Positions 11,201-14,200 of a stretch of DNA of 64,000 nucleotides are shown here, in pieces (within the stretch, counting starts at the first letter, position 1; each line of letters starts with the position of its first letter). The position numbers were made by a program. The DNA is from Escherichia coli (GTDB taxonomy: Bacteria; Pseudomonadota; Gammaproteobacteria; Enterobacterales; Enterobacteriaceae): NCBI RefSeq assembly GCF_036507355.1, contig NZ_AP027877.1. One strand, given 5' to 3'.

Positions 11201-14200
11201 TCATTGCGATAGAAGGGATAACGCTGATCATCCGTGCGGTCATCGCCTGATGCGACGCTGACGCGTCTTATCATGCCTACAAAATATGCCCGAATCGTAG
11301 GCCAGATAAGGCGCTTGCGCCGCATCCGGCATATAGCCGAGTAGAGGCAAAATTACTCTTCCCGGCCTTTACCCATACTTTTTTGGTCTTCATCCGGATA
11401 GTGTTTTTTTAGATATTCCAGGACGTTTTTATTGACCTTATGTTGGGTATACACCCACCCTTTCCAGTAATCAGGCTGGTCCAGGTAAACTTCTGGCGGA
11501 ATGGTGAAATCAGAAAGCGTTAACCATTCGGCTAACAGATCGGGGTTTCGTTTCTGTATCAACTGCAACAGCATAATCAGCGACATGGCAGAGGCAGGAG
11601 CCGTACTATCGCCGCTTAAATACTTCCACACTGTCGACCGGTTCGAACGAAAAAGGATCGGTAGCAATGCCCGGTCCAGATTCATTTCATTAAAAATCTT
11701 CTCAAATTCATTCATTTAAATTTTCCTGCCTTGCGTAAACCTCTTAAAAATTGAGATTTATCAAAGAAACGCATTTTAGCACACATCAGGAACCGCTTCA
11801 CGTTTAGTCCAGAAACGGAATTTATTTCGCTTATCAAAACAAGTCGTTACTCTTCTTTACGCTAAAATAGCATAAAATGACTTTCAAAATTATTTATTAA
11901 AGAAACGGATTAAATTTCTTATAGTCAGTGTTTGCGCTTACACAGGACAAAAATGCGCTTTACATCACACAAATGGCGGCGTAGATTTCGATCATATTGC
12001 AACGAAAATTAATTCTTATAGAAGCGCAAGAAGTTTCTATAAGAAACCAAAATAAACTTAATTTGATCGAGAAAAAATAAATGAAATCTGTAAAGTTGTC
12101 TTTACGGGCAGTCGTTGTTGCTACCATTGTGAGCCCATCTGCTTTTGCAGATGATACGGTTGAAGCGGCAGCGACAGAACTGACAGCGATTCACCCAGGT
12201 ATGTCTCATGATGAAATCGATCAAAAAATCAATCGCTTCATGATTCGGACAGGTAATACAGAAGCCGCGCAAGATTACCTGTTTTCTCATGGATATATGG
12301 ACCCACAGACAGGCGATAATATTTACCCCACCAGTACAGCCGTACAGACTGACAGCACTGTCACCGATAAAAACCAGGCAGATCGCGACGCGGCGCAAGA
12401 TACCGCCATTCAGAATGCACACAATATCGCAAGCATTGCGGCGGCAAATGCAGATGACGCCAAAAAAGCGCTTACCACTGCGCAATCTGCAATTGATGCG
12501 AACAAGGGAGCTATTGCTGATACTCAGAAAGATGTCGCAGATGTTAAAGCAAGTGCAGATCATGCCAACGAGAACGCTAATACCGCGTTGATGAATGGCC
12601 AGAAACTTTCCGGTGTCGTCAGCGACAACAAAAACCAGATTGAAAAAAACAGTACGGCGATTACCGAACAGCAGGAACAAATCACTGCCACGCAAAAAAC
12701 CGTTGCCGCCACTGCTGATGCGCAACAATCACAGTCTGAAGCCCAACAAACGCAGATTACAGAGCAACAGAAGCAGATCGCAGCCACAGAAAAAACGGTC
12801 GCTGCAATCGGCGATCCCCAGTCAACTGCGCATTATCAAAAGATGATTAATGCCAAACTGACAGCGCAAAATGAAGCCAATGAACGTTCAACCGCTGATC
12901 AGGGGCAGAGAATTAATGACCTGGCTTCCAATGTCGCGACGCAACAGCAAATCGATAGCGTGCAATACGGTGAACAAATTCGAAACCTTGCGCAAGACTC
13001 GGTCCAAACGCTCCAGGAGTTAACAAACACGCAAAAACGTGTTGCAGATAACAGCCAGCAAATCAATTCGCTCAATAACAACTTCAGTTCGTTGAAACAC
13101 GAAGTGGAAGATAACCGTAAAGAGGCTAATGCGGGTATTGCGTCAGCCGTCGCTATTGCTTCACAGCCTCAAGTTAAGACAGGTGATTTTATGATGGTGT
13201 CTGCCGGGGCGGGTACATTCAACAATGAATCTGCGGTATCTGTCGGTGCTTCGTTTAATGCTGGAATTCATACGGTAATTAAAGCGGGAGTCTCTGCGGA
13301 TACACAATCTGATTTCGGTGCGGGTGTCGGCGTGGGGTATTCGTTCTAATTTTAATAGCAATTTCTTATTCGCAATATTCCGCAGTTTATTTAAGGTTAA
13401 CAATGATGAATAGCTCCATTAAATCCTTTTCCCTGCTGGCTGTTATATTACTGGCTGGCTGTAGTTCACCCGCTTCCCGCATCGCAGATTGCCAGGCGCA
13501 GGGCGTCAGCCATGACACCTGTTATCTCGCAGAACAGCAGCGCCAGACGGCTATTTTAAGTGCTTCCGAAGAGCAGGCATTTAAAAATGCAGAAGCCGCA
13601 CAACATGCCCAGGCGGCAAAGAAAGCCATTTATAAAGGATTTGGCATGACCTTTAGAATGAGCAGTAAAAACTTTGCTTATCTCAATGATTCATTATGTG
13701 CAATTGATGAAAACAATAAAGATGCCACTGTTTATCAGTCAGGTCTGTATAACGTCATTGTTTATCATCACACAGGAAAAGTCGCCTTAATGAAAGAAGG
13801 CCAGTTCGTGGGTTATTTAAAATGAAGGAGCAAAGAAAAATACCCCTGACGCATATTATGATTATCGGTGCGTTTATTTTTGCCTTCTTGCAAGTAGTAT
13901 TATTAGCCTCCCTGGTTCACGCTGTGAATGTTAACAACGAAATCCAGGAAGGCTTATTTCAGTCGGGGCGCATTATGGTAGAAAGTTTGCAGCATATTCT
14001 TTCGGTGCAAACGGGGATTAACTGATTTTCACCCCGCCCGATGATGACAGCAGCCGGAGAGATTTTCGATAATCGGGCAGTCGGCGCTGTCATCACCGGG
14101 GCAGGCATTCGCCAGCGCCAGTAGCTGGTTGCGCATAGATTGCAGTTCTTCGATATGCCGTTCGATCTCCGCCACCTTCTCCAGCGTACGACGTTTGACG

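What the first reader, a model, noticed from the sequence alone, without database searches (positions are those of the whole stretch)
11910..12080. A perfect 11-bp inverted repeat, with a third half-site, lies just upstream of the autotransporter gene
ttcttatagaa, a 10 bp spacer, then ttctataagaa (12014-12045) sits ~36 bp upstream of the start codon. A third copy of ttcttatag is at ~11917. This looks like an operator for a dimeric regulator, possibly the divergently encoded 120-aa protein, placed where it would overlap the promoter in an AT-rich region likely bound by H-NS.
Basis: seen in the sequence. Interest (0 to 1): 0.45.

Follow-up and report, generated by a model that had tools for sequence, protein, structure and literature searches.

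The report
Repeated regulator boxes before an adhesin gene
The perfect inverted repeat is real, but it is two neighbouring copies of a short conserved box (TTCTnnnAGAAAC) that recurs through this E. coli adhesin control region, probably as docking sites for the small DNA-binding protein encoded next door; this is ordinary gene regulation, not yet described for this island.

Summary
The arms TTCTTATAGAA (12013-12023) and TTCTATAAGAA (12035-12045) are perfectly complementary. The spacer is 11 bp, not 10. The third copy lies at 11916-11924. About 1% of shuffles of the intergenic region give such a repeat.

The locus is E. coli island OI-29: a 120-aa protein (Z0640), 365 bp of AT-rich spacer, then a YadA-type trimeric autotransporter.

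Comparison with about 25 orthologous loci shows that the perfect dyad is a rare allele, found in 2 of 5426 complete E. coli genomes. What is conserved is a box, tTTCTnAtAGAAAC, whose core GAAAC occurs 5-8 times per spacer against about 1 expected. Each arm overlaps one box. The two boxes keep an invariant 22-bp spacing and lie at about +19 to +53 from a conserved promoter (TTTACA-17-TAGATT). They are downstream of the promoter and do not overlap it. Another box sits at the predicted start of the regulator's own promoter.

The 120-aa protein models confidently as an XRE-type helix-turn-helix protein and is paired with a YadA-like gene in every locus down to 43% identity where the neighbour could be read.

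Best reading: an array of operator boxes for this regulator. Binding is inferred, not shown.

Side note: the published "transcription factor GmrA" (z0639) is this adhesin gene.

The parts
11353..11715 (-). 120-aa protein, the orthologue of O157:H7 Z0640. The N-terminal ~65 residues form an XRE-type helix-turn-helix; the C-terminal part is a helical domain of unknown type.
   Evidence: ORF. It is 99% identical to the O157 protein. z0640 deletion primers flank this ORF in O157. AF2 pLDDT 91.5. Foldseek top hits are XRE HTH domains. Pfam hits on family members.
11773..11781 (-). Predicted extended -10 (TGCTAAAAT on the minus strand) of the regulator's own promoter.
   Evidence: Read from the sequence. 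A TGnTAnnAT pattern is kept in nearly all of the 14 orthologous spacers, with variant hexamers TAAAAT, TATCAT and TATAAT. ATTTTA is among the most conserved hexamers. The promoter scan did not call it because the -35 is weak, so this is an inference.
11758..11770 (+). Box A, TTATCAAAGAAAC. It sits at about +1 of the predicted regulator promoter and is a candidate autoregulatory site.
   Evidence: 1 mismatch to TTCTNNNAGAAAC. AAAGAAAC is invariant in Escherichia and 0.9 conserved across genera.
11804..11816 (+). Box B, ending in CAGAAAC.
   Evidence: AGAAAC 0.88 conserved across 10 divergent loci.
11894..11906 (+). Box C, TTATTAAAGAAAC.
11914..11926 (-). Box C'. With box C it forms AAGAAAC-N7-(G/A)TTTCTT.
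   Evidence: D6. TTTCTTAT is invariant. GTTTC at spacer position 198-201 in most Escherichia and several other-genus loci.
11959..11987 (+). Predicted sigma-70 promoter of the adhesin gene: TTTACA, 17 nt, TAGATT. The transcription start is inferred at about 11994.
   Evidence: GCTTTACATCACA and GGCGTAnnTT are conserved in all 14 spacers and are among the top conserved blocks. No experimental start site was available.
11991..12003 (+). Box 1, degenerate in E. coli (GCAAC) but GAAAC in E. whittamii and other genera. It lies 22 bp upstream of box 2.
   Evidence: GAAAC at -82/-83 from the ATG in L009, L007, L010 and L014.
12013..12025 (+). It lies at about +19 to +31.
   Evidence: The orthologous box is TTCTTATAGAAAC in L010 and ends in GAAAC at -60 to -62 from the ATG in L012, L014 and L016.
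12033..12047 (.). It lies at about +39 to +53. Its GAAAC sits -38 to -41 from the ATG in nearly every locus.
12069..12074 (+). Shine-Dalgarno-like GAGAAA. It is not sequestered by the hairpin.
   Evidence: Most conserved hexamer. Fold.
12081..13349 (+). YadA-type trimeric autotransporter adhesin of 422 aa, the orthologue of O157:H7 z0639 ('gmrA').
   Evidence: YadA_anchor at residues 363-422. RefSeq product names. It is 49% identical to O157 Z0639, with a conserved signal peptide and anchor. Primer mapping.

Best explanation
The inverted repeat is two adjacent copies (box 2 at 12013-12025 and box 3 at 12033-47) of a conserved cis-regulatory box with consensus tTTCTnAtAGAAAC. This box recurs at least six times in the 365-bp divergent control region of E. 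coli island OI-29. The boxes are most likely DNA-binding sites for the divergently encoded 120-aa XRE-type HTH protein (Z0640 orthologue), with one dimer bound per near-palindromic box.

Boxes 1 to 3 are phased 22 bp apart, about two helical turns and so on the same face of the DNA. They lie just downstream of the adhesin promoter, at about +5 to +53. A bound array there would hinder initiation or early elongation, or alternatively compete with H-NS. Box A sits on the start site of the regulator's own promoter, which would give autoregulation.

The perfect 11/11 symmetry between boxes 2 and 3 belongs to this rare allele. It follows from both boxes matching the palindromic consensus with mirror-image centres (TAT and ATA).

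Shown here: the boxes, their enrichment, their conservation and spacing, the conserved promoter motifs, the HTH fold, and the gene pairing. Inferred: who binds, the sign of regulation, and the transcription start sites.
For: - Enrichment. GAAAC is the most over-represented pentamer of the spacer (5 observed, 1.0 expected). It is enriched in every one of 14 orthologous spacers (5-8 against about 1; at most 0.5% of shuffles reach this). TTCTNNNAGAAAC with up to 1 mismatch gives 8 hits in 64 kb against 2.1 expected, and 5 of them lie in this 365-bp spacer.
- Conservation of position. Box positions are kept across Escherichia, Pseudocitrobacter, Symbiopectobacterium and metagenomic relatives while the flanking sequence diverges. 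The 22-bp spacing between boxes 2 and 3 is kept in most loci, including L016 and L030, whose regulators are only 43-48% identical; box 2 or box 3 is degenerate in some of them.
- Both orientations. Boxes occur on both strands and also upstream of the promoter. That fits recognition of DNA better than recognition of RNA.
- Promoters. The -35/-10 of the adhesin gene is conserved in all 14 spacers, and the regulator has a conserved extended -10.
- Regulator. AF2 pLDDT 91.5. Foldseek top hits are all XRE HTH DNA binders, led by HigA2 with prob 0.99 and rmsd 2.4 A over 63 columns. One family member each hits Xre-like-HTH, HTH_3, HTH_26 and MqsA at E <= 1e-3.
- Pairing. Every homologue down to 43% identity whose upstream neighbour could be read lies divergent to a YadA-like gene (YadA_anchor on record in L012-L014, L016 and L030), even where the other flanking genes differ.
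- Selection. The regulator is 99% identical between the window and O157, while the adhesin is only 49% identical.
Against: - No binding data exist. The window protein itself misses Pfam thresholds (best hit MqsA HTH, E 0.12), and the Foldseek E-values are weak (0.37).
- The transcription start sites are predicted only.
- In the commonest E. coli allele (O157/UTI89 type) boxes 1 and 2 are degenerate (GCAAC, AACAA), so only box 3 and the upstream boxes are intact.
- A more distant relative, L017 (41% identity), has no GAAAC enrichment.
- A conserved host regulator that recognises GAAAC could explain the same conservation.
- Yang et al. 2018 (PMC5826968) saw no motility phenotype for the z0640 deletion. 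They did not measure adhesin mRNA in that mutant.
Confidence: 0.55

Rival explanations
1. The repeat acts as an RNA hairpin in the 5' UTR. Both arms lie in the predicted 5' UTR and fold into a 13-bp stem that would modulate mRNA stability, pausing or translation of the adhesin.
For: In this allele the 39-nt segment folds at -15.1 kcal/mol, and the UTR as a whole has z = -3.15 against shuffles. Several other alleles keep a dyad about the same centre with different inner sequence: E. whittamii at -11.7, and M114 at -8.8 with CAACG/CGTTG. There are apparent compensatory changes, A-T to C-G and T-A to A-T. The covariation score is 0.139 against a shuffled mean of 0.088, reached by 9 of 500 shuffles.
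Against: The hairpin is absent or weak in the commonest E. coli allele (O157/UTI89, -5.0, and that is only the self-hairpin of box 3) and in L012, L016 and Symbiopectobacterium (0 to -0.5). Only 68.8% of cells pair, and the slid controls reach covariation scores of 0.118-0.127. Complementarity is expected anyway when two boxes share one palindromic consensus. The Shine-Dalgarno sequence is not sequestered and no U-run follows the stem. Rfam gives only a sub-threshold spurious hit. The same motif occurs outside the transcript and on the other strand.
Confidence: 0.15
2. The boxes are real binding sites, but for a chromosomal global regulator or nucleoid protein rather than for Z0640. Candidates are H-NS/StpA on AT-rich acquired DNA, or an OmpR-type response regulator that recognises GAAAC-like direct repeats.
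For: The spacer has 0.29-0.38 G+C across the loci compared, 0.32 in the window. Phased direct repeats of GAAAC are typical of response-regulator sites (my own knowledge, not tested). gmrA mRNA responds to temperature, pH and osmolarity in O157 (PMC5826968). Those conditions are classically tied to H-NS and OmpR (my own knowledge).
Against: The box array travels with the Z0640-family gene into different genomic contexts and genera. I could not match the box to any E. coli regulator consensus I know: Cra, RcsB, CytR and EvgA were compared by eye and all differ in spacing or polarity. H-NS would not explain exact conservation of a pentamer at fixed positions.
Confidence: 0.2
3. The perfect dyad has no function of its own. 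It is a chance product or a mutational one, for example template-switch 'quasipalindrome correction' between two similar boxes.
For: The perfect allele is present in only 2 of 5426 complete genomes. Relative to its closest relatives, this allele differs by a cluster of about 11 substitutions within about 25 bp, while the rest of the spacer is about 97% identical. The centre triplet of box 3 is exactly flipped between alleles, TAT against ATA.
Against: This is compatible with the best explanation and concerns only the extra symmetry. The two genomes that share the arms differ at two spacer positions while both arms stay intact. That is weak evidence and a tiny sample.
Confidence: 0.1

Closest known systems
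Operators of small XRE-family regulators: controller (C) proteins of restriction-modification systems such as C.Esp1396I, the anti-CRISPR-associated protein Aca2, and the antitoxin HigA2
   Same: These are small HTH proteins with the same fold as the model's N-terminal domain. From my own knowledge, they bind as dimers to two or more adjacent short palindromes over or next to a promoter and usually autoregulate. Here there are adjacent near-palindromic boxes, and one box lies on the regulator's own predicted start site.
   Different: The box sequence (tTTCTnAtAGAAAC) and the array layout differ: at least six boxes over 300 bp, with three phased at 22 bp downstream of the target promoter. The extra ~55-residue C-terminal domain has no match. 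The target is an adhesin gene, not a toxin, methylase or anti-CRISPR gene. There is no sequence-level membership: Pfam E 0.12 for this protein.
O157:H7 O-island 29 (z0638, z0639/gmrA, z0640), described by Yang et al. 2018 (PMC5826968)
   Same: It is the same locus. The window's 120-aa protein is 99% identical to Z0640. The adhesin is the z0639 orthologue. The flanking genes ybbJ and cueR are the same.
   Different: The paper treats z0639 (GmrA) as a transcription activator and z0640 as a gene of unknown function. It does not describe the intergenic boxes or how gmrA is regulated. Here z0639 carries a signal peptide and a YadA anchor, and z0640 is the HTH protein.
Adhesin-linked local regulators and phase switches in E. 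coli: PapB/PapI with Dam-Lrp, OxyR-Dam at agn43, and the fimS inversion
   Same: In each case a small regulator gene or cis element sits next to a horizontally acquired adhesin gene in an AT-rich control region.
   Different: No PapB-type Pfam hit was found. The GATC sites (11990, 12065) are not conserved between alleles. No inverted orientation appears among 1413 genomes, and no recombinase is present.

Membership tests
Palindromic operator of a dimeric HTH regulator | Dyad symmetry at the site | tested here: met
   The arms are 11/11 complementary. Each box is also a near-palindrome: TTC-N5-GAA for box 2 and GTTTC-N5-GAAAC for box 3.
Palindromic operator of a dimeric HTH regulator | The symmetric site is conserved in orthologous loci | tested here: not met
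   For the 33-bp dyad as a unit, complementarity is 11/11 only in this allele. It is 9/11, 7/11, 10/11 and 2-9/11 elsewhere. The individual boxes are conserved.
Palindromic operator of a dimeric HTH regulator | Half-sites about one helical turn apart | tested here: not met
   The arm centres are 22 bp apart. Within one box the half-sites (TTTCT and AGAAA) are about 8-9 bp apart, which does fit a dimer.
Palindromic operator of a dimeric HTH regulator | Overlaps or abuts the promoter it controls | tested here: inconclusive
   The boxes lie at +5 to +53 from a predicted, conserved -35/-10. No experimental transcription start is available.
Palindromic operator of a dimeric HTH regulator | Specific binding by the regulator | not testable with these tools
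   This needs EMSA, footprinting or ChIP.
XRE / Cro-C1 HTH superfamily (for the 120-aa protein) | Five-helix HTH fold | tested here: met
   The AF2 model has pLDDT 91.5. Foldseek top hits are HigA2 (prob 0.99, TM-target 0.68, rmsd 2.4 A), P2 C, Aca2, C.Esp1396I, MqsA and lambda cI. The E-values are weak (>= 0.37).
XRE / Cro-C1 HTH superfamily (for the 120-aa protein) | Significant match to a Pfam HTH profile | tested here: inconclusive
   For this protein the only hit is the MqsA HTH at E 0.12. One distant family member each reaches E <= 1e-3 for Xre-like-HTH, HTH_3, HTH_26 and MqsA. The PDB profile search gives an Xre/ParS antitoxin at E 0.43.
Trimeric autotransporter adhesin (type Vc), for the downstream gene | C-terminal YadA_anchor beta-barrel segment plus an N-terminal signal peptide and a coiled-coil stalk | tested here: met
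   YadA_anchor at residues 363-422 covers the full model, E 2.6e-10. The signal-peptide-like N-terminus MKSVKLSLRAVVVATIVSPSAFA is seen. Weak coiled-coil-type hits (SMC, Rad50) appear.
Intrinsic terminator or attenuator | G+C-rich stem followed by a U-run | tested here: not met
   No terminator-like sites were found in 11650-12150. The stem is A+U-rich and is followed by ACCAAAAUAAAC.
Invertible promoter switch (fimS-like) | Inverted repeats flank the promoter, both orientations occur in the population, and a recombinase is present | tested here: not met
   A 25-nt, 80% complementary repeat (11915-11939 with 12022-12046) does flank the promoter (I1). Its extension is allele-specific. All 1413 E. 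coli matches are single colinear pieces. No recombinase lies in the island.
Dam-dependent phase variation (pap or agn43 type) | Conserved GATC sites inside the regulator binding sites | tested here: not met
   GATC at 11990 and 12065 is lost in the O157 and UTME3 alleles (GATT, GAAC).

The most novel reading that the evidence does not exclude
Z0640 and its relatives form a small, previously uncharacterised family of XRE-like regulators dedicated to YadA-type adhesin genes. Only 23 cluster representatives appear among 1.84 billion proteins. They would act through a phased array of GAAAC boxes placed mostly downstream of the target promoter. If so, Z0640, and not the adhesin Z0639 ('GmrA'), is the true transcription factor of island OI-29, and the reported GmrA effects on fliA would need re-interpretation, for example as envelope-stress or adhesin-mediated signalling. 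In addition, allele-specific hairpins in the 5' UTR, created by template switching between boxes, would tune adhesin expression between E. coli lineages.
Probability: 0.3. Interest if true: 0.6.

Novelty: new member of a known kind. Interest (0 to 1): 0.4.

Why it matters
OI-29 is present in about a quarter of complete E. coli genomes (1413 of 5426), including O157:H7, O145:H28, UTI89 and other extraintestinal pathogens. Its adhesin gene has been reported as a motility regulator, and its own regulation is described as unknown (PMC5826968).

This analysis identifies a conserved promoter, a box array and a dedicated HTH partner. That gives a directly testable model for how the adhesin is switched on by temperature, osmolarity and host contact. 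It also flags a likely mis-assignment of the DNA-binding role within the island.

As biology it is an ordinary local regulator-operator arrangement. Its value is practical rather than conceptual.

Tried and rejected
- Invertible switch. The 25-nt imperfect repeat flanking the promoter (I1) suggested inversion. I rejected this because there are no inverted alleles in 1413 genomes, the repeat extension is allele-specific, and no recombinase is present.
- Terminator or RNA thermometer. No U-run follows the stem and the Shine-Dalgarno sequence stays free.
- Known RNA family. Rfam gave only a sub-threshold Corona_pk3 match (25.7 bits against a gathering score of 35.6), which is a hairpin artefact.
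- Dam/GATC phase variation. The GATC sites are not conserved.
- Known E. coli regulator consensus sequences (Cra TGAAAC|GTTTCA, RcsB box, CytR, EvgA, IHF). I compared these by eye from memory and none fits the spacing or polarity. This is a lead, not a formal test.
- First structure model with 12 sequences. It had pLDDT 62 and its fold search was meaningless. Rebuilding with 18 sequences fixed this.
- Sequence searches of the 120-aa protein against NCBIfam and PDB found nothing significant.
- The genome-contig scan found only 4 loci. More distant loci had to be fetched by exact-protein look-up.
- Another perfect box palindrome, at 62031-62045, lies inside a G+C-rich ORF and is probably chance.
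Full report
**1. What is in the sequence.**
The window is E. coli: core genes fetA to ybbJ are 99.3% identical to complete E. coli genomes. Positions 12013-12023 (TTCTTATAGAA) and 12035-12045 (TTCTATAAGAA) are perfectly complementary 11-nt arms separated by 11 bp. The right arm ends 35 nt before the ATG at 12081. A third copy of TTCTTATAG lies at 11916-11924.

The downstream ORF (12081-13349) has a signal-peptide-like N-terminus and a full YadA_anchor domain, so it is a trimeric autotransporter. The divergent ORF at 11353-11715 encodes 120 aa. The 365-bp spacer between them has 0.32 G+C.

Perfect inverted repeats of this size are rare. The whole window holds 7 distinct ones against 0.34 expected, and 1% of dinucleotide shuffles of the spacer contain one.

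**2. Genomic setting.**
The locus lies between ybbJ and cueR and occurs in 1413 of 5426 complete E. coli genomes. It is O-island 29 of O157:H7.

The deletion primers published by Yang et al. 2018 (PMC5826968, Suppl. Table S2) map exactly to the borders of the annotated genes in an O157:H7 genome. 'gmrA' (z0639) is the YadA-family adhesin CDS, z0640 is the 120-aa ORF, and z0638 is the downstream lipoprotein.

The window's 120-aa protein is 99% identical to Z0640. The adhesin is only 49% identical to Z0639; the signal peptide and anchor are conserved, and the stalk is variable.

**3. The dyad is not the conserved unit.**
I compared six E. coli alleles. I then compared 14 to 19 spacers from Escherichia, E. 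whittamii, Pseudocitrobacter, Symbiopectobacterium and metagenomic relatives. The 12005-12035 patch is one of the most variable parts of the spacer.

Arm complementarity by allele:
- 11/11 in the window and in two complete genomes, TUM13936 and OZ197100
- 9/11 in the O145/UTME-3 type
- 7/11 in the O157/UTI89 type, which is the commonest
- 10/11 in E. whittamii
- 2-9/11 in other genera

What is conserved is the pentamer GAAAC, usually preceded by TTCTnAtA, which gives a near-palindromic 13-15-bp box. GAAAC is the most enriched pentamer in the spacer (5 observed, 1.0 expected). It is enriched in all 14 spacers at 5-8 copies against about 1. Allowing one mismatch, 5 of the 8 matches to TTCTNNNAGAAAC in the 64-kb window lie in this spacer.

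Box positions are largely fixed:
- box A, 11758-11770
- box B, 11804-11816
- box C, 11894-11906
- box 1, 11991-12003, degenerate in E. coli

Boxes 1, 2 and 3 are 22 bp apart in most loci, including two whose regulators are only 43-48% identical. Both match the palindromic consensus and their centres happen to be mirror images (TAT and ATA).

**4. Promoters.**
The only sigma-70-like site that the scan found is TTTACA-17-TAGATT at 11959-11987. Its two hexamers and their flanks are conserved in all 14 spacers, with -10 variants that all keep TAnnnT. This places the inferred transcription start near 11994. Boxes 1 to 3 then lie at +5 to +53, inside the 5' UTR and not over the -35/-10.

On the other strand a conserved TGnTAAAAT (11781 to 11773) looks like an extended -10 for the regulator gene. 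Box A lies at its predicted start site. This second promoter is my own inference, because the scan did not call it.

**5. The 120-aa protein.**
It has no Pfam or NCBIfam assignment. Its family is tiny: 23 representatives at E <= 1e-3 among 1.84 billion proteins.

With an 18-sequence alignment AlphaFold gives pLDDT 91.5. The best PDB matches are all XRE-type HTH DNA binders: HigA2 (prob 0.99), P2 C, Aca2, C-proteins, MqsA and lambda cI. Individual family members reach significance against Xre-like-HTH, HTH_3, HTH_26 and MqsA. The C-terminal ~55 residues have no match.

Every homologue down to 43% identity whose neighbour could be read lies divergent to a YadA-like gene across a spacer of about 360 bp. 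This holds even where the other neighbours differ.

**6. Mechanism.**
The most economical reading is an operator array for this regulator. One dimer binds per box, three phased boxes lie just downstream of the adhesin promoter, further boxes lie upstream, and one box autoregulates.

The sign of regulation cannot be determined here. It could be repression by roadblock, or counter-silencing of H-NS. None of the binding is demonstrated.

**7. Rivals.**
- RNA hairpin. In this allele the segment folds at -15.1 kcal/mol. Some alleles keep a dyad about the same centre with different inner sequence, with apparent compensatory changes. Against this, the commonest allele and three other genera have no such hairpin, the slid-partner controls come close to the observed covariation, and two boxes that share a palindromic consensus are complementary by construction.
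- Global regulator or H-NS. This cannot be excluded. gmrA mRNA responds to temperature, pH and osmolarity.
- Rejected outright: inversion switch, terminator, Dam phase variation and known RNA families.

**8. Verdict.**
It is wrong on the unit, which is a set of boxes rather than one dyad, and on the placement, which is downstream of the promoter. This is a new but unsurprising local regulator-operator pair.

The more surprising by-product is that the published 'transcription factor GmrA' is the adhesin gene, while the neighbouring gene of unknown function encodes the HTH protein.

Noticed in passing
window 12081-13349; L002 3367-4383: The gene published as 'transcriptional activator GmrA' (z0639; PMC5826968, repeated in the review PMC10877973) is the YadA-family trimeric autotransporter. 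The authors' deletion primers flank exactly that CDS. The protein has a signal peptide and a YadA_anchor domain. The only DNA-binding-like Pfam hit is a weak coiled-coil artefact, TMF_DNA_bd at E 2.5. The HTH protein of the island is z0640, which the paper left uncharacterised.
   Followed up: partly
window 11835-11868: The block CAAAACAAGTCGTTACTCTTCTTTACG is among the most conserved stretches of the spacer across 10 divergent loci. It is neither a GAAAC box nor part of either predicted promoter, and its function is unknown.
   Followed up: no
window 12038-12042 and orthologues: The centre triplet of the box 3 palindrome is TAT in the O157, UTI89 and M114 alleles and ATA in the window and E. 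whittamii alleles. That is an exact flip needing three simultaneous substitutions. Allele type IV (M114, DS566-2) keeps a dyad about the same centre with different inner sequence (CAACG/CGTTG). This looks like template-switch mutation at a quasipalindrome, or selection for a hairpin.
   Followed up: partly
window 11353-13349 compared with L002: Conservation differs sharply across the island. The regulator is 99% identical between this strain and O157, the spacer 83%, and the adhesin 49%, with large indels in the stalk. The alleles of the dyad patch appear to track the adhesin alleles, which suggests recombination breakpoints inside the spacer.
   Followed up: partly
L004 (M114) 3367-4840; L019-L022, L024: In several E. 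coli genomes no CDS is annotated immediately downstream of the spacer, or the YadA-like CDS is called 0.4-1.5 kb further on. This may reflect long or repetitive stalk alleles, frameshifts or mis-called starts.
   Followed up: no
protein P0028: A 2772-aa protein carries seven copies of a stretch matching residues 56-105 (the C-terminal domain) of the 120-aa regulator family. That domain may therefore be a reusable module rather than only a dimerisation tail.
   Followed up: no
window 14433-17767 and beyond: Just past cueR lie HlyD-family and permease/ATPase type I secretion genes, next to a giant gene for an Ig-like-domain protein. This is a second acquired adhesin/exoprotein system adjacent to OI-29.
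   Followed up: no
window 62031-62045: A perfect box-like palindrome, GTTTCTGCCAGAAAC, lies inside a G+C-rich 125-aa ORF on the minus strand. It is probably chance.
   Followed up: partly
window 2170-2203, 2620-2648, 56079-56110: Other perfect inverted repeats of at least 11 nt with short loops. From their sequences they look like ordinary terminator or REP-like hairpins. I did not examine them.
   Followed up: no
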